Shown here: one piece after another, positions 12,984 to 27,025 of the stretch
Numbering within the stretch: the first letter of the stretch is position 1
Layout: each line of letters starts with the position of its first letter
Assembly: GCA_963740355.1 (NCBI GenBank)
Contig: CAVUDW010000002.1
Span: 896,001 to 960,000, forward strand
Direction: 5' to 3'
Source of the DNA: an uncultured Gemmatimonadaceae bacterium
Lineage (GTDB): Bacteria > Gemmatimonadota > Gemmatimonadetes > Gemmatimonadales > Gemmatimonadaceae
DNA length: 64,000 nucleotides
Position numbers and translations under genes: made by a program
The notes under the pieces: generated by a model
What the model saw: the letters and a program-made list of their open reading frames with translations, nothing else
Told to the model about the DNA's origin: nothing
Databases searched by the model: none

Positions 12984-13584
12984 TCCCGTGACGGAGTCCG
13001 TCGGTGCCGGTGGCCTTCAGGCCGGGTAGATCGCCCTGCGCAAAATCTGACTGCATCCCGCGCACGGCCGCATGTCGCACCGGAGTATCGACCGGTTCTC
13101 TGGCGACGGCGTCGTCGGCAGTCTCTGTCACTTCTGGTTCGCCCCGCAAGCTACGCAATGTGGCTCGAGCATGGCCGATCCATCGGGCGCCGTCTGTTCC
13201 TGATGGGCCCGCTACCAGGAAGGTCTCCAGATGCTGGATCGCGCCGTCCACGTCACCCTTCTTCGCCAGCAGGAACGCCACGCCGTAGTTGGCACCGGGG
13301 TGGGTCGGCGCCGACTCCAGAATCTTGCGATAGGCGCGGATCGCCTCGTCGTTGCGGCCCGACTTGGTGAAGACGATCGCCATGTTGAGCAGGATCTTCG
13401 GATCGTCCGGGCTCGTTCGCAGCGCAAGGCGATACGACGTCAACGCACCGTCGAGGTCGTTTGCCTTCTCCAGCGACAGCCCTTCTGCGACGAAATCGGG
13501 ACGACTCGCTCCCAGATCGCGTGCGGAAGGCTGCCCACCAAGCAGGCGCGACACGCCATCGGAGACACGGCGCAAGAAGGTCAT
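12973..13584 (-). CDS. Tetratricopeptide-repeat protein
   Basis: About three TPR-like helical repeats (ALTSYRLALRTSPDD, AIRAYRKILESAPTH); start taken at ATG 13584. Confidence 0.75.
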   Translation of the reverse strand: MTFLRRVSDGVSRLLGGQPSARDLGASRPDFVAEGLSLEKANDLDGALTSYRLALRTSPDDPKILLNMAIVFTKSGRNDEAIRAYRKILESAPTHPGANYGVAFLLAKKGDVDGAIQHLETFLVAGPSGTDGARWIGHARATLRSLRGEPEVTETADDAVAREPVDTPVRHAAVRGMQSDFAQGDLPGLKATGTDGLRHGNDV

Positions 13585-13799
13585 GGATCCAAGGCCAAGG
13601 GGAAAACGTCGCAAATCCGTGCATAGGCGCACCGACGCACGGACTCGTGATTCTGCACAAGCTACGTGCTGGGTACCACCTCCGGCAATGATGCATGCGC
13701 TGCAGCGCGAACCATTCCGAGCTACCTTCGCCAGGAGCACGAACGCGATCACTTCGATTGCGTCGCGGTTCAGGTCGCCCTGATCACGGAGAAATGGTG

Positions 13800-14330
13800 A
13801 TGCCCCCGCGCCGCACGTCGGTAGACCCGTCCAAGGGTGTGCTGGAAGTTGAATGGCAGCTCTTCGGTGAACTCTCGCGCGCCCTCGCACTCAAGGTCTC
13901 GCGGGAGTTCGATCCGGAACTGGTCATCGGCATCGCCAATGCTGGCGTGATCCCGGGAGCCACGATCGCGTCGATTCTGGATCGCCCGTTCGTATCGATG
14001 ACGGTCAGCCGTCGCTATCGCCCCGACGAGCAGGTGCGCGAGACGCCGGCAATTTTTGGTGAAGCGCCGGCGGCCGCACGGGGCAAGCGTGTCCTGCTGG
14101 TGGATGAGACGTGCGATTCCGGCGACACGATCCGGCTCGCCAAGGCCGCCATCATCAACCTCGGTGCGGAAGCGGTGAAGACGGCGGTCAGCTTCAAGAC
14201 CGGCCCCTTCGTGCCCGACTTCGCCGCCATCGCGACGGAGGCCGCCATCATCCTGCCGTGGGACAGAGAGCTGCTGATCAATGGTGAGTTGGTGCTGAAT
14301 CCGGCCTACGCCGCATACCGAAGCGCGTAG
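13800..14330 (+). CDS. Phosphoribosyltransferase (type I PRTase)
   Basis: PRPP-binding VLLVDETCDSGDT; GGAG RBS at 13788. Confidence 0.85.
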   Translation: MPPRRTSVDPSKGVLEVEWQLFGELSRALALKVSREFDPELVIGIANAGVIPGATIASILDRPFVSMTVSRRYRPDEQVRETPAIFGEAPAAARGKRVLLVDETCDSGDTIRLAKAAIINLGAEAVKTAVSFKTGPFVPDFAAIATEAAIILPWDRELLINGELVLNPAYAAYRSA

Positions 14331-21527: not shown

Positions 21528-22570
21528 GCGCGGGCGCACTGCGATCGCGTACGATCGAGCGCCCGCTGGCGCGCCCTCGGTATCGCGAAGTGGTGGCGGC
21601 AACGCGCGCTGCCGTGCGTGCACTCGTGGCCTGCCTGCTGTGCGTGGCACTCGATCCACAGCGCGCTGTGGCGCAGCCGTCGCCGCCGCGTGCGGGGTGG
21701 CGGCTGGTGTGGCAGGATGAGTTCAACGGCACCGCGATCGACACCACCAAGTGGAGCTTCGACCTCGGCAACGGCTTCACGACCGACAGTGGCGCAACGT
21801 TCGTCAGCGGCTGGGGCAACAACGAGCTGCAGTGCTACACGCGCGATACCGCGAACGCGTTCGTGTCCGCGGGCCGATTGCACATTCGCGCGCTCCGCTC
21901 GACTGGCGAGGGATGTCCATTCACGTCGGCGCGGCTCACGACGCGTGGTGCAAATGGGCGCGCGCTGTTTGCACAGCGATACGGGCGGTTCGAGTTTCGC
22001 GCTCGCCTTCCGCTCGGTCGCGGCCTCTGGCCTGGGCTCTGGATGCTGCCGCAGGACAACGCGTATGGCACGTGGGCGGCATCTGGTGAAATCGATGTCA
22101 TGGAGGCGCGCGGTCAAACACCCTCGACCGTGCTTGGCACGCTGCACTATGGCGCGCGCTATCCGCACAACGCCTTCACCAGCGCGGATTACGTCCTGCC
22201 GCGCGGTGGCAGCATTGCGGACTTCCACCTGTATGCCGTGGAATGGGAGCCGGGCCGGATTCGATGGTCGGTGGATGGCGTGCTGTACCAGACGCAGTCG
22301 TTTTGGTGGAGCAGCAGTGCTGAAGCAGGGCGGCAGGGTGTGCTGCCCACGTCGGAGGCGTCGCTGAATGCGTGGCCGGCGCCGTTCGACAAGCCGTTCT
22401 ACCTGCTGATGAATCTTGCGGTCGGCGGCAACTTCCTCGGGGCGCCGGACGCGACGACGCCATTCCCGGCCGCGATGGAAGTGGATTTCGTGCGGGTCTG
22501 GACGCGCCGGCGCGACGCGACGGATCTGGCTCCGCGTGGGGCAGGGATTCTGCCGTGGCAGCGGAAGTAA
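21524..22570 (+). CDS. Glycoside hydrolase family 16 (laminarinase-like beta-glucanase)
   Basis: GEIDVME catalytic motif, WGNNELQ, WPGLWM, PFDKPFYLLMNLAVGG. Confidence 0.9.
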   Translation: MSAGALRSRTIERPLARPRYREVVAATRAAVRALVACLLCVALDPQRAVAQPSPPRAGWRLVWQDEFNGTAIDTTKWSFDLGNGFTTDSGATFVSGWGNNELQCYTRDTANAFVSAGRLHIRALRSTGEGCPFTSARLTTRGANGRALFAQRYGRFEFRARLPLGRGLWPGLWMLPQDNAYGTWAASGEIDVMEARGQTPSTVLGTLHYGARYPHNAFTSADYVLPRGGSIADFHLYAVEWEPGRIRWSVDGVLYQTQSFWWSSSAEAGRQGVLPTSEASLNAWPAPFDKPFYLLMNLAVGGNFLGAPDATTPFPAAMEVDFVRVWTRRRDATDLAPRGAGILPWQRK

Positions 22571-22740
22571 TCGCGGCCCTTTTCGCTGAAAAACCGTAGA
22601 AACTCCGACGAAAGAGTTTTTAAGCGGTTACAGCGTATGTGTTCGAGGCTTGATTCGGGCTTCAGTAACCCAAAGCCAGTGGTGTCAGTGGTTTACGGGC
22701 GATGTCCGGTACATCGAGGGGTGGTGCCGGCCGGCGTAAC

Positions 22741-22784
22741 TGTCAATAAAAGTTGACACTCGAAGTTGACAACAAAGCTTGACA
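22741..22784. promoter_or_regulatory. Tandem PpsR/CrtJ operator sites in the puc promoter
   Basis: TGT-CAATAAAAGTTG-ACA (22741-22758, perfect TGT-N12-ACA), 8-bp gap, TGA-CAACAAAGCTTG-ACA (22767-22784, one mismatch). Confidence 0.8.
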
Positions 22785-22806
22785 CCAACGATCCCGGGCG
22801 CAGAAT
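22779..22806 (+). promoter_or_regulatory. Putative sigma70 promoter of pucBAC
   Basis: TTGACA (22779-22784), 16-bp spacer, CAGAAT (22801-22806); overlaps the second PpsR box. Confidence 0.45.
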
Positions 22807-22936
22807 AGGTCTGTGATTCCGAGTTGCAGAAACACGAGCTAAGCGGAGATCACGTAGCACGGTGCATGGCTACTCGAGCCATGGTCCCCCAACGTGCGGG
22901 TCAAGCACGGTTGTTCATTGCTCCAGGAGAATCGTT

Positions 22937-23095
22937 ATGGCTGATAACGATCCAAACCGCGTCTGGCCGTCAGGCCTGACCACGCGGGAAGCTGAGGAGT
23001 TGCACGACGGTTTGAAGCAGGGCACGCGCATCTTCGGTGCGATCGCGATTGTGGCTCACATCCTCGCGTTCATCAATACTCCCTGGCTTCACTAG
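22937..23095 (+). CDS. pucB: Light-harvesting complex LH2 beta polypeptide (52 aa)
   Basis: MADNDPNRVWPSGLTTREAEELH...GTRIFGAIAIVAHILAFINTPWLH; BChl His41, Arg at -10, PWL end; AGGAGA RBS. Confidence 0.93.
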   Translation: MADNDPNRVWPSGLTTREAEELHDGLKQGTRIFGAIAIVAHILAFINTPWLH

Positions 23096-23107
23096 AGGGC
23101 TACACAC

Positions 23108-23341
23108 ATGAACGAAGGAAAAATCTGGACCGTCGTGAAGCCGTCCGTTGGCGTGCCGCTGTTCCTTGGTGGCGTGACGGTGATTGCACTGCTCGTCCAC
23201 GGTGCACTGTTGCTGAAGACTGACTGGTTCGGCGCCTACTGGAACGGTGGCCCGAAGGCTGTGGCAACCGCCACGGTATCGGCACCGGTGCAGACGGCAC
23301 CTGCGGCCGCGACTCCGACTGCGGCGCCAACCACGCCGTAA
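23108..23341 (+). CDS. pucA: Light-harvesting complex LH2 alpha polypeptide (77 aa)
   Basis: [17 protein letters not shown]...H31...W40..Y44W45 followed by an Ala/Pro/Thr-rich tail. Confidence 0.93.
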
Positions 23342-23367
23342 TGGCGTTGCTGGTCCGCGAGTCTTGC

Positions 23368-23397
23368 TAGGGGCCGGGATACCAATCCCGGCCCCTA
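23368..23397 (+). terminator. pucA-pucC intercistronic stem-loop (attenuator or mRNA stability element)
   Basis: Perfect 13-bp stem TAGGGGCCGGGAT-ACCA-ATCCCGGCCCCTA, no U-tract. Confidence 0.7.
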
Positions 23398-23466
23398 CGT
23401 CGCTGGCGGCGAGCACAACGCGGGACAAGTTTGGTCCACGCACTTCGCCCCCCATGCCCTGACCCG

Positions 23467-24870
23467 ATGAATCTCAACCGGAAGCTCGTACAGACGTGGG
23501 CCGAACTGGGGCCGCGCTTCCTGCCGTTTGCCGATGTCGCCACCAAGGAGTTGCCGCTCTCGCGCCTCCTCCGCCTGTCGTTGTTTCAGGTGTCGGTCGG
23601 CATGGCGTCGGTGCTCCTCATCGGTACGCTCAATCGCGTCATGATCGTCGAGCTTGGCGTGCCGGCGTCGCTGGTGGCGATCATGATCTCGTTGCCGTTG
23701 ATCGCGGCGCCCTTTCGCGCGCTGATCGGGTTCCGCTCCGACACCCATGTCTCGGCGCTGGGCTGGCGGCGCGTGCCGTACATCTGGAAGGGCACGATGC
23801 TGCAGTTCGGCGGCCTCGCGATCATGCCGTTCGCGCTCCTCGTCGTCTCGGGCGGGAACGGCCTTGGCGCTCCGGACTGGATTGGCCAACTGGGTGCCGG
23901 CCTCGCCTTCCTGCTGGTGGGCGCTGGACTGCACACGGTGCAAACCGTTGGCCTCGCGCTGGCGACGGACCTGGTGGCGGAAGAGCAGCAGCCGAAAATC
24001 GTCGGACTGATGTACGTCATGCTGCTCGTGGGCATGATTGCCAGTGCGATCATCTTTGGCGCCCTGCTCTCGAACTTCACGCCGGCCAAGCTGATTCAGG
24101 TGATTCAGGGCGCTGCCGTGGTCACCATCGCGCTCAACATCATTGCGATGTGGAAGCAGGAGGCGCGCGATCCGAACAAGACGCGCGAAGGGCGCGAGGA
24201 ACCGAGCTTCCGCGAATCATGGGACAACTTCACGCAGGGTGAGGGCGCCATTCGACGGTTGATCGCCGTCGGTGTTGGCACGATGGCGTTCAGCATGCAG
24301 GACGTGTTGCTGGAGCCGTACGGCGGTCAAGTGCTGAACCTGACTGTCGCGTCGACCACGCGCCTGACGGCCACCTTGTCGCTCGGTGGGCTGATCGGTT
24401 TCCTGCTCGCGTCGCGTGTGCTGGGTCGGGGCGGCGATCCATTCAAGATGGCGTCGTACGGCGCGCTGGCGGGAATCCCCGGCTTCTCGTTCGTGATCTT
24501 CGCCGGGCCGCTGCATTCGGCACTAATCTTTTTCGCGGGTACCTTCCTGATCGGCTTCGGCGGCGGTCTGCTCAGCCACGGCACGCTGACGGCGACGATG
24601 AACCACGCGCCGGAGAAGCAGCGCGGGCTGGCGCTGGGCGCCTGGGGGGCCGTGCAGGCGTCGGCAGCGGGCATCGCTGTCGCCTTCGGCGGAATCGCCC
24701 GCGACGTGGTGAACGGCATGAGCGCACGCGACGTGTTCGGGCACGCGCTCTCCGGTCCTGCGACCGGCTATACGCTCGTCTACAGCCTCGAAGTCGTGCT
24801 GCTGGTGGTGACGCTGGCCGCGATGTTCCCGCTGATTCGCCGTCCAGTGACGGAACGCGTCACGGCCTGA
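23467..24870 (+). CDS. pucC: PucC / BCD-family MFS protein for light-harvesting complex assembly
   Basis: LPFADVAT...RLLRLSLFQVSVGM, TLNRVMIVEL, QDVLLEPYGG, GAWGAVQA; directly downstream of pucBA. Confidence 0.9.
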   Translation: MNLNRKLVQTWAELGPRFLPFADVATKELPLSRLLRLSLFQVSVGMASVLLIGTLNRVMIVELGVPASLVAIMISLPLIAAPFRALIGFRSDTHVSALGWRRVPYIWKGTMLQFGGLAIMPFALLVVSGGNGLGAPDWIGQLGAGLAFLLVGAGLHTVQTVGLALATDLVAEEQQPKIVGLMYVMLLVGMIASAIIFGALLSNFTPAKLIQVIQGAAVVTIALNIIAMWKQEARDPNKTREGREEPSFRESWDNFTQGEGAIRRLIAVGVGTMAFSMQDVLLEPYGGQVLNLTVASTTRLTATLSLGGLIGFLLASRVLGRGGDPFKMASYGALAGIPGFSFVIFAGPLHSALIFFAGTFLIGFGGGLLSHGTLTATMNHAPEKQRGLALGAWGAVQASAAGIAVAFGGIARDVVNGMSARDVFGHALSGPATGYTLVYSLEVVLLVVTLAAMFPLIRRPVTERVTA

Positions 24871-24939
24871 CGCCTCGCGCAGCGAAGGCGACTCGCCCGA
24901 GCCGTGATCGACCGCGTGCGCGCAGGGTGCAGGACAAGA

Positions 24940-24971
24940 ATCGGGCGGCCACCAGTGGGTGACCGCCCGAT
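24940..24971. terminator. Hairpin between convergent pucC and gyrB
   Basis: ATCGGGCGG...CCGCCCGAT stem with inner CACC/GGTG. Confidence 0.5.
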
Positions 24972-25000
24972 CAGGTTACAGCCGGCTGGCTCGCGTCAGG

Positions 25001-27025
<2,025 letters not shown>

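What the first reader, a model, noticed from the sequence alone, without database searches (positions are those of the whole stretch)
22937..24870. Complete purple-bacterial LH2 antenna operon (pucBAC) in an apparently non-proteobacterial, Gemmatimonadota-like chromosome
Seen: pucB, pucA and pucC are intact and form a compact unit between a GH16 gene and the 3' end of gyrB, with no other photosynthesis genes in the window. Alpha has His31, Trp40, Tyr44 and Trp45; beta has the BChl His and the Arg at -10. Known: these residues mark B800-850 LH2 (alpha Tyr44/Trp45 hydrogen bonds set B850; the beta Arg binds B800). From memory, the N-termini (VWPSGLTT, KPxVGVP) and the [12 protein letters not shown] segment closely resemble Rubrivivax gelatinosus LH2. 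The adjacent GyrB is the short form, unlike alpha/beta/gamma-proteobacteria. Characterised phototrophic Gemmatimonas use a double-ring RC-dLH complex, and I do not recall a classical LH2 in them. Inference: a phototrophic Gemmatimonadota lineage may have acquired a free peripheral LH2 antenna in a separate horizontal transfer, which would give a new photosystem architecture.
Basis: partly seen in the sequence, partly recalled or inferred. Interest (0 to 1): 0.92.

Follow-up and report, generated by a model that had tools for sequence, protein, structure and literature searches.

The report
Purple-bacterial LH2 antenna operon in Gemmatimonadaceae
A bacterium of the phylum Gemmatimonadota carries an intact, well-conserved set of genes for the classical "LH2" light-harvesting ring of purple bacteria, an antenna that published phototrophs of this phylum are reported to lack.

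Summary
pucB (22937-23095), pucA (23108-23341) and pucC (23467-24870) are intact and lie between a GH16 gene and the 3' end of gyrB. Their closest solved relatives are LH2 chains (E about 1e-19 to 1e-20). Gemmatimonas LH1/LHh chains match only weakly (E 0.005-0.17).

The host is a Gemmatimonadaceae genus (code g1). Named MAGs with 92-99% identical GyrB share the same gene order, so the locus is not a chimeric join. The genome has a full photosynthesis gene cluster 550 kb away: pufBALMC, the Gemmatimonadota-type split puhA, and ppsR. It has no pufA2, the gene for the outer LHh ring.

A PucC of at least 70% identity was found in 12 of 19 congeners. PucA-like genes were found in no other genus of 400 family genomes, apart from one weak hit. 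Five puc-less congeners have a clean empty site. The peptides group next to Rubrivivax-type Betaproteobacteria. Codon composition matches the host, and a tandem PpsR-type operator sits on the promoter.

The best reading is a functional B800-850 LH2 serving an RC-LH1 core. The acquisition is old, but whether it came with the gene cluster or separately is unresolved. I found no paper describing it.

The parts
22741..22784 (+). Tandem PpsR/CrtJ-type operator, (TGT-N12-ACA)-N8-(TGa-N12-ACA). The second palindrome overlaps the -35 hexamer.
   Evidence: One match in the 64-kb window against 0.01 expected. The second palindrome is kept in 8 of 8 aligned genus loci. The first is exact in 5 of 8 and has ACG or cGT variants in the other 3. 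The stricter TGTCA-N8-TGACA occurs 4 times in the 5.45-Mb genome: here, twice in the photosynthesis gene cluster, and once elsewhere. ppsR is present at 478.6 bits against a cut-off of 275.4. The same kinds of variant sites are footprinted by PpsR in R. gelatinosus (PMC4452267, passages). Binding was not tested here.
22779..22806 (+). Sigma-70-like promoter: TTGACA, 16 nt, CAGAAT.
   Evidence: 10 of 12 consensus matches. It is the only such site in 22500-25100; shuffles give a mean of 0.2. The -35 hexamer is invariant in the 8 aligned loci. The transcription start was not mapped.
22864..22936 (+). Highly conserved 5' leader ending in the ribosome-binding site AGGAG (22925-22929).
   Evidence: Nearly invariant across 8 genus loci whose gyrB DNA is only 88-91% identical. 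Folding gives no thermodynamic support (z = 0.28). No Rfam family matches. Its role is unknown.
22937..23095 (+). pucB, the LH2 beta polypeptide (52 aa): His41 is the BChl ligand and Arg31 lies at -10.
   Evidence: Pfam LHC. The best solved relatives are LH2 beta chains: 7zdi_B E 5.3e-20 and 7ze3_B 6.7e-18. Gemmatimonas 7o0u_BA reaches only E 0.0052. It is 92-98% identical in 7 named Gemmatimonad MAG loci and 71% identical to R. gelatinosus.
23108..23341 (+). pucA, the LH2 alpha polypeptide (77 aa): Met1, His31, Tyr44-Trp45, and an Ala/Pro/Thr-rich C-terminal tail (about residues 49-77).
   Evidence: Pfam LHC. The best solved relatives are LH2 alpha chains: 7ze8_A E 8.6e-20, 7zdi_A 1e-19, 1kzu_A 6.5e-19. 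Gemmatimonas 7o0u_aa reaches only E 0.17. Codons 31-52 are closer to R. gelatinosus than to congeners.
23368..23397 (+). GC-rich hairpin between pucA and pucC (13-15 bp stem, 4-nt loop, no T run).
   Evidence: Folding of 23335-23470 gives -63.2 kcal/mol, z = -3.37, and 0 of 200 shuffles fold as well. An equivalent hairpin is present in all 8 genus loci, with paired changes in one of them. A role in mRNA stability or attenuation is inferred from purple-bacterial puc operons.
23467..24870 (+). pucC, the MFS-like LH2 assembly factor (467 aa).
   Evidence: Pfam PUCC 510.1 bits over the whole profile. It is only 52% identical to the genome's own LhaA paralogue. It is 81-84% identical in 8 named Gemmatimonad MAG loci and at most 70% identical to any proteobacterial PucC found. 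It sits among PucC sequences in the tree rooted on LhaA.
24940..24971 (.). Inverted repeat between the convergent pucC and gyrB genes; a terminator-like hairpin without a T run.
   Evidence: Seen in the sequence and in the fold of 24868-25003. That fold is not significant as a whole (z = -1.46). Its function is inferred only.

Best explanation
This is a functional pucBAC operon.

How it works:
- pucB and pucA encode the beta and alpha apoproteins of a classical purple-bacterial B800-850 LH2 antenna.
- pucC encodes the membrane factor that helps assemble them.
- The alpha-beta pairs bind bacteriochlorophyll a made by the genome's own photosynthesis gene cluster: a B850 pair on alpha His31 and beta His41, and a B800 at the alpha N-terminus and beta Arg31.
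- The pairs oligomerise into free rings, probably nonamers.
- The rings pass excitation to an ordinary RC-LH1 core encoded 550 kb away by pufBALMC and puhA1/puhA2.
- Transcription starts from a sigma-70-like promoter that carries a tandem PpsR operator. A hairpin after pucA probably keeps pucBA message in excess over pucC.

The host is a Gemmatimonadaceae genus without pufA2, so LH2 fills the outer-antenna role that the LHh ring fills in Gemmatimonas.

The cassette came from a purple bacterium whose antenna peptides resemble those of Rubrivivax-type Betaproteobacteria. It entered at or before the radiation of the genus. It is now present in some congeners and cleanly absent in others.

Shown here: gene identity, LH2-type sequence, host, synteny, distribution, conserved regulatory elements.
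Inferred: expression, pigment binding, ring size, energy transfer, PpsR control, direction and timing of transfer.
For: LH2 identity:
- LHC and PUCC domains.
- The best solved relatives are LH2 chains at E 1e-19 to 1e-20; Gemmatimonas LH1/LHh chains reach only E 0.005-0.17.
- The pigment-ligand residues are in place.

Under selection:
- PucB is 92-98% and PucC 81-84% identical across named MAG loci.
- The promoter, operator, leader and hairpin are conserved in 8 loci.

A working photosystem to serve:
- pufL/pufM and pufBA.
- bch, crt, lhaA and pufC, split puhA, ppsR.
- No third LHC gene in the puf operon.

Host and continuity:
- GyrB is 92-99% identical and the order M1-(GH16)-puc-gyrB is the same in MAGs titled Gemmatimonadaceae, Gemmatimonadales or Gemmatimonadota.

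Distribution:
- A PucC of at least 70% identity in 12 of 19 congeners.
- PucA-like genes in 2 of 77 genera of 401 family genomes; the second genus has one weak hit.

Age:
- GC3 of the puc genes is 0.72-0.85, against 0.75-0.87 in the neighbouring genes.
- The genus PucC and PucBA form their own clades outside the sampled proteobacterial clades.

Regulon link:
- 3 of the 4 genome-wide TGTCA-N8-TGACA sites lie at puc or in the photosynthesis gene cluster.
Against: - No expression data. No RNA run holds the stretch.
- No spectra, and no culture is known to me.
- NCBIfam's only hit for PucB is an 'LH1 beta' equivalog, above its cut-off (67.5 against 61 bits). PucA falls below the cut-off of the 'LH1 alpha' model. 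One curated library therefore labels the beta chain as LH1.
- Ring size and free versus attached arrangement cannot be read from sequence.
- Seven congeners with a gyrB-side site lack the cassette there, so it is dispensable.
- The leader has no thermodynamic support for a structure.
- The PucC tree is unresolved at its base, and the PucBA tree rests on 100 columns with a quick search.
Confidence: 0.8

Rival explanations
1. The puc peptides do not form free LH2 rings. They form an outer ring or fixed co-complex around RC-LH1, a functional analogue of Gemmatimonas LHh or of the Halorhodospira LH1-LH2 co-complex.
For: Published phototrophic Gemmatimonadota use a concentric double ring (PMC8849296 passages; PMC12817894 sections 8-9). 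A double-ring LH1-LH2 co-complex exists in a purple bacterium (PMC11802735, abstract in the search listing). This genome's PufM carries an unusual periplasmic OmpA-like domain, so the core complex is not standard.
Against: The peptides are 60-70% identical over the aligned stretches to chains of free LH2 complexes (7zdi, 7ze8, 1kzu). The genome keeps a dedicated pucC, as LH2-forming purple bacteria do. No pufA2 is present.
Confidence: 0.1
2. Evolutionary rival A: pucBAC arrived in a separate, later horizontal transfer into the stem of this genus, after the photosynthesis gene cluster was already in Gemmatimonadaceae.
For: PucA-like genes are confined to this genus among 77 genera. Of the 50 PufM-positive genomes of other genera, only one has even a weak match. 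The cassette lies 550 kb from the gene cluster, in a housekeeping neighbourhood. PucBA is sister to Rubrivivax-type Betaproteobacteria (SH-aLRT 88). PufM of all Gemmatimonadaceae instead groups apart from the Beta clade and nearer a Chromatiaceae MAG.
Against: The divergence from Betaproteobacteria is alike for PucC (64-70% identity over the 12 Beta loci) and PufM (67-72%). The composition is fully ameliorated. The genus is the deepest PufM branch among the family's phototrophs. One loss in the sister clade would therefore explain the pattern equally well.
Confidence: 0.45
3. Evolutionary rival B: pucBAC came in together with the photosynthesis gene cluster in the founding transfer. It was kept only in this genus and lost in the ancestor of the other phototrophic genera. 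Some of those genera later evolved pufA2/LHh.
For: In 8 of 12 Betaproteobacteria loci, pufM lies within 6 kb of pucC, so a donor could pass both on one DNA segment. The split puhA is shared with Gemmatimonas (PMC8849296, PMC12817894). Monophyly of all 30 Gemmatimonadaceae PufM sequences is not rejected (AU p = 0.485). The genus branches outside the other 16 family sequences. pufA2 was seen only in one group of genera: 11 genomes of 8 genera. It was not seen in 7 fetched genomes of 6 genera, this genus included, nor in the window's own genome.
Against: There is no remnant of puc in any other genus searched. The cassette is not adjacent to the gene cluster here. PucBA and PufM show different nearest proteobacterial classes.
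Confidence: 0.4
4. The cassette is a silent relic or an assembly or binning artefact.
For: There is no RNA evidence. Seven congeners with a gyrB-side site lack it there. The public contigs laid on the stretch are short fragments.
Against: All three genes are intact in this genome, and PucC-type matches in 10 congeners are full-length or nearly so with no internal stop, plus 1 running to a contig end and 1 partial. The non-coding control elements are conserved. The same flanks occur in several independent MAGs. Exact-match contigs from other runs bridge the GH16 end into the promoter region (22537-22742) and pucB into pucA (22924-23307).
Confidence: 0.04

Closest known systems
pucBAC operon and LH2 of Rubrivivax gelatinosus (Betaproteobacteria)
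   Same: Same gene order B-A-C. The alpha chain has an Ala/Pro-rich C-terminal tail and the segment [12 protein letters not shown]. The beta N-terminus is MAD..VWPSGLTT. Identities to the DSM 1709 locus are PucB 71%, PucA 60% and PucC 67%. The pucB promoter carries tandem PpsR palindromes with ACG or TGa variants overlapping the promoter (PMC4452267 passages). pucC is needed for LH2 in that species (PMC4949548 introduction).
   Different: The host phylum differs. Here the palindromes are 8 nt apart; the R. gelatinosus pucB promoter has 9. Beta has His23 where Rubrivivax has Gln. The cassette sits between GH16 and gyrB. The paper on the alpha tail (Steunou 2004) is not held, so what I say of the tail's role is recalled.
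Solved LH2 complexes of Rhodopseudomonas palustris (7zdi, 7ze8, 7zcu, 7ze3) and Rhodoblastus acidophilus (1kzu/1nkz)
   Same: These are the best sequence matches in the PDB for both chains (E 1e-18 to 1e-20). The alignments run end to end and the ligand residues are conserved. 7zdi_A also has an Ala/Pro tail.
   Different: Roughly 60-70% identity over the aligned stretches. The organism names for these entries are partly recalled; the tool gives only molecule names. No structure was modelled here.
LHh outer ring of the Gemmatimonas phototrophica and G. groenlandica RC-dLH (pufA2 with the shared pufB; 7o0u, 9h19)
   Same: Same phylum and family. The same role is expected: an extra antenna feeding LH1. 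The gene cluster shares the split puhA.
   Different: LHh derives from LH1 genes inside the puf operon and shares the LH1 beta chain (PMC8849296, PMC12817894). Here the antenna has its own alpha, beta and PucC, is LH2 by sequence, and the genome has no pufA2. G. phototrophica is stated to lack LH2 (PMC8849296 passage).
LhaA, the LH1 assembly paralogue of PucC
   Same: Same Pfam family, PUCC. The genome has its own lhaA next to puhA (419 bits).
   Different: Only 52% identical to the window's PucC. It serves as the outgroup on a long branch in the PucC tree.

Membership tests
LH2 (puc-encoded B800-850 peripheral antenna) | Two small single-helix peptides with the antenna (LHC) domain, beta gene before alpha gene | tested here: met
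   Pfam LHC in both peptides; pucB comes first, then pucA.
LH2 (puc-encoded B800-850 peripheral antenna) | Sequence closer to LH2 than to LH1 or LHh chains | tested here: met
   For each chain the nine (beta) to eleven (alpha) best PDB matches are all LH2/LH3 chains; LH1 chains appear only below them. Gemmatimonas chains reach E 0.005-0.17. Against this, NCBIfam labels PucB with an LH1-beta model above its cut-off.
LH2 (puc-encoded B800-850 peripheral antenna) | BChl-ligating His in each helix (B850 pair) | tested here: met
   Alpha His31 and beta His41 align with the His of 1kzu and 7zdi.
LH2 (puc-encoded B800-850 peripheral antenna) | B800 site: alpha N-terminal Met1 and beta Arg at -10 from the His | tested here: met
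   Alpha starts MNEGKIW and beta has Arg31 before His41. The role of the N-terminal Met is stated in PMC12817894 (legend). The role of the Arg is recalled.
LH2 (puc-encoded B800-850 peripheral antenna) | Alpha Tyr44-Trp45 pair of the 850-nm form | tested here: met
   AYW at positions 43-45. The spectral meaning is recalled from mutagenesis literature and was not tested.
LH2 (puc-encoded B800-850 peripheral antenna) | Dedicated pucC next to pucBA | tested here: met
   PUCC 510 bits, 125 nt downstream on the same strand. Co-transcription was not tested.
LH2 (puc-encoded B800-850 peripheral antenna) | 800/850-nm absorption and free 8- or 9-mer rings | not testable with these tools
   Needs membranes or a purified complex.
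Gemmatimonas-type LHh (pufA2) | A second alpha gene inside the puf operon that shares pufB | tested here: not met
   The own puf operon holds only pufB and one pufA, with 115 nt to pufL. The same holds in the congener G083. A2-type genes were seen in 11 genomes of 8 other genera.
PucC (LH2 assembly factor, MFS-like) | Full-length PUCC domain, distinct from LhaA, clustering with PucC sequences | tested here: met
   The role in assembly is taken from PMC4949548 and was not tested.
PpsR/CrtJ regulon | Paired TGT-N12-ACA palindromes at the promoter and a ppsR gene in the genome | tested here: met
   Binding and repression were not tested.
Phototrophic Gemmatimonadota photosynthesis gene cluster | puhA split into a short membrane part and a cytoplasmic part | tested here: met
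   Two adjacent ORFs in L089: 13113-13475 (PRCH N-terminal domain) and 13479-14069. The feature is described in PMC8849296 and PMC12817894.

The most novel reading that the evidence does not exclude
This genus preserves the original antenna set that entered Gemmatimonadota with phototrophy: RC-LH1 plus a PpsR-controlled, free LH2, as in the purple-bacterial donor. The celebrated double-ring RC-dLH (pufA2/LHh) is then a later replacement, invented in one subclade after LH2 was lost. The phylum would hold a natural series with three states: LH2 kept, LH2 lost with LH1 only, and LH2 lost then replaced by LHh. Even within this one genus the cassette is switched in and out.
Probability: 0.3. Interest if true: 0.8.

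Novelty: new member of a known kind. Interest (0 to 1): 0.68.

Why it matters
Phototrophic Gemmatimonadota are the textbook case of a whole photosystem moved between phyla. Their double-ring RC-dLH is presented as the lineage's own solution for a larger antenna. G. phototrophica is stated to lack LH2, and pufA2 is said to predate the split into genera.

Three points here change that picture:
- One Gemmatimonadaceae genus instead carries the purple-bacterial LH2 with its own assembly factor and PpsR operator.
- That genus has no pufA2.
- Six genera, this one included, have plain pufBA operons.

So the family holds at least three antenna designs. As far as I recall, this would be the first LH2 outside Pseudomonadota.

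It also makes a question testable. What does a foreign host need to run a modular, regulated peripheral antenna? And why do close relatives differ by a clean presence or absence of a 2.4-kb cassette?

Tried and rejected
- Searches failed on my own coordinate slips (stop codon included, wrong frame for pucC). I corrected them.
- RNA evidence: no RNA holder is listed for 22600-25000.
- Read laying on four DNA runs gave only short, low-depth contigs. No single piece spans a junction into gyrB. It adds little beyond the synteny.
- Rfam: one sub-threshold chance hit and no family for the leader or hairpin.
- The leader fold is not better than shuffles. The fold of the pucC-gyrB spacer is not significant either.
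- My first AU test on the gyrB tree coded G374 as carrying puc at the gyrB site. One search showed that its gyrB site is empty, so I discard in favour.
- The 5.4 kb upstream of puc in the named MAG locus L039 shows no mobile-element genes and no M1/GH16: Rieske and polyketide-cyclase domains in 3 of 10 ORFs, nothing in the other 7. How the cassette reached that place is unexplained.
- The idea that this genus acquired its photosynthesis gene cluster independently arose because its PufM is only 69-73% identical to that of other genera. The shared split puhA and the AU test do not support it.
- The search of earlier findings found no notes on this genome and none on LH2 in this phylum.
- Steunou 2004 (PMC400626) is not held.
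- The 'pucC' full-text search was swamped by Puccinia and Puccinellia papers.
Full report
**1. The observation**

- pucB: 22937-23095, 52 aa.
- pucA: 23108-23341, 77 aa.
- pucC: 23467-24870, 467 aa from a conserved ATG.

Pfam finds the antenna LHC domain in both small peptides, at 39.4 and 51.1 bits. It finds the PUCC family over the whole of PucC, at 510.1 bits. The flanks are a GH16 gene and the convergent gyrB.

**2. LH2, not LH1 or LHh**

Against all PDB chains, PucA is closest to LH2 alpha chains: 7ze8_A E 8.6e-20, 7zdi_A 1e-19, 1kzu_A 6.5e-19. PucB is closest to LH2 beta chains: 7zdi_B 5.3e-20. The Gemmatimonas RC-dLH chains are far down the lists. For alpha, 7o0u_aa has E 0.17 and 9h19_Aa 0.036. 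For beta, 7o0u_BA has E 0.0052.

One result points the other way. NCBIfam's only hit for PucB is an 'LH1 beta' equivalog above its cut-off, 67.5 against 61 bits. I read that as a library without an LH2-specific model, but it is a curated label that disagrees.

The recalled likeness to Rubrivivax gelatinosus is confirmed on the DSM 1709 locus L036. PucB is 71% identical, PucA 60% and PucC 67%, and the alpha segment [12 protein letters not shown] is shared.

**3. Host and continuity**

A scan of one genome per species with PucC confirmed 128 relatives and kept the best 80.
- 8 are titled Gemmatimonadaceae, Gemmatimonadales or Gemmatimonadota, at 81-84% identity.
- The other 72 are Pseudomonadota apart from one Limisphaerales MAG. 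Their best is 70% (Rubrivivax rivuli).

Of those 8 loci:
- 7 show pucB and pucA upstream of pucC.
- 6 show the M1 peptidase and 4 the GH16 gene.
- 6 show gyrB downstream, with GyrB 92-99% identical to the window's.
- One, L039, shows none of the flanking genes.

So the host is a Gemmatimonadaceae bacterium, and the cassette's position is reproduced in independent assemblies. Five of these named loci are identical in gyrB to genus handles used below, so the two sets overlap and must not be added.

**4. The rest of the photosystem**

The genome (5.45 Mb, 5 contigs, 94.5% complete) has pufL and pufM on the same contig, 550 kb away. It has exactly four LHC genes over the Pfam cut-off: pufB and pufA there, and pucB and pucA here.

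Only 115 nt separate pufA from pufL, so there is no pufA2. PufA and PufB are ordinary LH1 chains, and PufB has a long C-terminus.

Around them lie crtI, hemA, hemF, tspO, bchP, bchG, bchH, bchL, bchM, bchX, bchY, bchZ, bchC, bchD, crtB, crtF, lhaA, pufC and a B12-binding regulator. My ORF picking was crude and missed some genes. ppsR is present at 478.6 bits against a cut-off of 275.4.

puhA is split into a short membrane ORF and a separate cytoplasmic ORF. The papers describe this split as specific to Gemmatimonadota (PMC8849296 passages; PMC12817894 section 8).

**5. Distribution**

| Sample | Query | Result |
|---|---|---|
| 401 family genomes incl. own, 77 genera | PucA | own + 7 of 14 sampled congeners; one weak hit in another genus (E 5.9e-4, 35% identity) |
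| Same 401 genomes | PufM | 64 genomes in 16 genera; 13 of 14 congeners at 90-97% identity; all other genera at 69-76% (full-length matches 69-73%) |
| 19 congeners | PucC | PucC of at least 70% identity in 12 (one partial, one divergent at 70%); LhaA only in 6; nothing in 1 (83% complete) |
| 401 phylum genomes incl. own, 12 families | PucA | the genus, plus one genome of another family (G669) |

In G669, pucBA and pucC lie on a 16-kb contig with 70% GC, while its puf locus has 64% GC. Whether that contig belongs to the bin is uncertain. All these are samples, not censuses.

**6. Presence and absence inside the genus**

All five puc-less congeners that I examined have M1 and/or GH16 directly beside gyrB. 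The spacer is 71-762 bp and holds no trace of puc. Similarity to the window stops near 22500 and resumes near 25000.

Two further congeners also have an empty gyrB site. G374 and G010 carry puc on other contigs, and G010's PucC is only 70% identical.

On a gyrB DNA tree rooted with five other genera, site occupancy needs 4 changes. A tree with all occupied genomes on one side is rejected (AU p = 0.003). I chose that grouping after seeing the tree, and gyrB is the cassette's own neighbour. The earliest-branching pair of the genus carries puc.

The PucC and gyrB trees disagree within the genus. That points to recombination between species. I therefore conclude only that the cassette was in the genus early and has since been lost or exchanged several times.

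**7. Origin**

PucB plus the N-terminal 50 residues of PucA give 74 rows and 100 columns (quick search). The 8 Gemmatimonad rows form one clade (SH-aLRT 97). It is sister to 7 Rubrivivax-type Betaproteobacteria (88). Both lie inside a Beta, Gamma and Gemmatimonad group (98) set apart from all Alphaproteobacteria.

The PucC tree has 41 rows and is rooted on LhaA. It gives separate Gemmatimonad (81), Beta (86), Gamma (100) and Alpha (94) groups on an unresolved base.

The PufM tree (56 rows, careful search) gives three results.
- The genus is a 100/100 clade on a long branch.
- It joins a Chromatiaceae MAG plus the other 16 Gemmatimonadaceae at 97/82.
- Holding all 30 Gemmatimonadaceae together costs 0.59 log-likelihood units (AU p = 0.485).

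With the shared split puhA, this fits one origin of the gene cluster in the family, with this genus as its deepest branch.

GC3 of the puc genes (0.72-0.85) matches that of the neighbours (0.75-0.87). In 8 of 12 Betaproteobacteria loci, pufM lies within 6 kb of pucC, so a single transfer of both is physically plausible. I cannot decide between co-transfer with later loss and a separate early transfer.

**8. Antenna-gene styles in the family**

I fetched the DNA upstream of pufL in 19 genomes of 16 genera.
- 11 genomes of 8 genera have pufB, an A2-type gene and an A1-type gene. This is the published Gemmatimonas arrangement, with a short beta. In two of them one gene was seen only.
- 7 genomes of 6 genera, this genus included, have only pufB (long form) and one pufA.
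- 1 genome was cut by a contig end.

The two styles match the two PufM clades. pufA2 is therefore not general in the family.

**9. Operon anatomy and control**

A sigma-70-like promoter (TTGACA, 16 nt, CAGAAT; 22779-22806) is the only one in 22500-25100.

It carries (TGT-N12-ACA)-N8-(TGa-N12-ACA) at 22741-22784. That pattern is unique in the window, against 0.01 expected by chance, and is conserved in 8 genus loci. The stricter TGTCA-N8-TGACA occurs 4 times in the genome, 3 of them at puc or in the gene cluster. PpsR of R. gelatinosus footprints tandem sites of just this kind, variants included, on its pucB promoter (PMC4452267 passages).

A 73-nt leader is almost invariant among the 8 loci, but it has no folding signal and no Rfam match.

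A strong hairpin follows pucA (z = -3.37). It is kept in all 8 loci, with paired changes in one.

**10. Literature**

I saw sections 8-9 and passages of PMC12817894, and passages of PMC8849296. G. phototrophica 'lacks LH2', and LHh comes from pufA2.

Full-text searches combining gemmatimonad* with pucB, LH2, pucC or peripheral-antenna terms gave no paper that, judged from the listed titles and abstract openings and the passages I read, reports puc or LH2 in the phylum. The listings showed the top 15 of 114 and of 115 matches for two of these searches. The main texts of four genomic papers contain no 'puc', and three of them no 'LH2' (PMC8547001 was not searched for that term): PMC8547001, PMC10581226, PMC9426454 and PMC7844134.

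A supplementary table of PMC10581226 has an automatic row 'LHII beta subunit A'. It is scored present in many MAGs, including GCA_000695095.2 and GCA_013004105.1, which I recall to be the two Gemmatimonas isolates. The row is therefore not diagnostic. A few MAGs score 2 and may be puc carriers. Some supplement files could not be read.

**11. Verdict**

This is a real, conserved, classical LH2 operon in a Gemmatimonadaceae genus that lacks LHh. It is a new host phylum for a known system, with an unresolved but old origin. No expression or spectral evidence exists yet.

Noticed in passing
L089:17870-19381 (-), = G000:C2:1467870-1469381, outside the window: The genome's PufM is 504 aa. A normal reaction-centre M domain is followed by a C-terminal OmpA-family (peptidoglycan-binding type) domain: PF00691, E 2.7e-19, residues 390-486. 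All 13 congener PufM frames are also long (505-577 aa), as are those of some other genera. Frames in the genus with complete genomes and the pufA2 arrangement are 371-409 aa. A reaction centre tethered to the cell wall would be unusual.
   Followed up: partly
L184:3513-4055 (-), = G164 (another genus of the family), just downstream of its gyrB: A 180-aa gene fuses an LH1-alpha-like antenna domain (Pfam LHC, residues 1-41) to an OmpA-family domain (residues 80-152). It sits in the same position relative to gyrB as the puc cassette does in the window's genus.
   Followed up: partly
Loci L194-L212 (upstream of pufL in 19 Gemmatimonadaceae genomes): There are two puf-operon styles. 11 genomes of 8 genera have pufB(short)-pufA2-pufA1. 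7 genomes of 6 genera have pufB(long)-pufA only. One genome has two beta genes. The LHh design is thus confined to part of the family.
   Followed up: yes
window 23198-23263 (pucA codons 31-52): The window's pucA looks mosaic. Codons 1-30 are 77-82% identical in DNA to congeners and 72% to R. gelatinosus. Codons 31-52 are 80% identical to R. gelatinosus and only 56-62% to congeners. This could be gene conversion from a Rubrivivax-like allele, retention of an old form, or convergence. The stretch is too short to decide.
   Followed up: partly
L154, L156 and L170 (G010); L166 (G374); L039: Two congeners have an empty gyrB-side site but carry puc on other contigs. One of them has a PucC only 70% identical, on a long unresolved branch. 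A named MAG locus (L039) likewise has puc without the usual flanks. The cassette has moved or been re-acquired at least once.
   Followed up: partly
L191 (G669:C271), another family of the phylum: pucB, pucA and pucC (63% identical to the window's PucC) lie on a 16-kb contig of 70% GC, in a genome whose puf locus has 64% GC. This is either a second LH2-bearing Gemmatimonadota lineage or a mis-binned contig.
   Followed up: partly
L039 and L191 (PucA alignments): In these two loci the alpha chain has Phe-Trp where the window has Tyr44-Trp45. From recalled mutagenesis work, this would blue-shift the 850-nm band by roughly 10 nm.
   Followed up: no
L062 and L150 (MAG titled Limisphaerales, Verrucomicrobiota): This MAG carries pucC, pucBA and a pufM with one in-frame TGA. 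All group with Alphaproteobacteria. Mis-binning is the likeliest explanation.
   Followed up: no
L013, L014, L017, L021, L025, L026, L027, L030: In 8 of 12 Rubrivivax-type or Betaproteobacteria loci, pufM lies within 6 kb upstream of pucC. There the puc genes are physically linked to the puf operon. R. gelatinosus DSM 1709 does not show this.
   Followed up: yes
PMC10581226, supplementary file 5, row 2230: [quoted passage not shown] It evidently mislabels pufB. A few MAGs score 2.
   Followed up: partly
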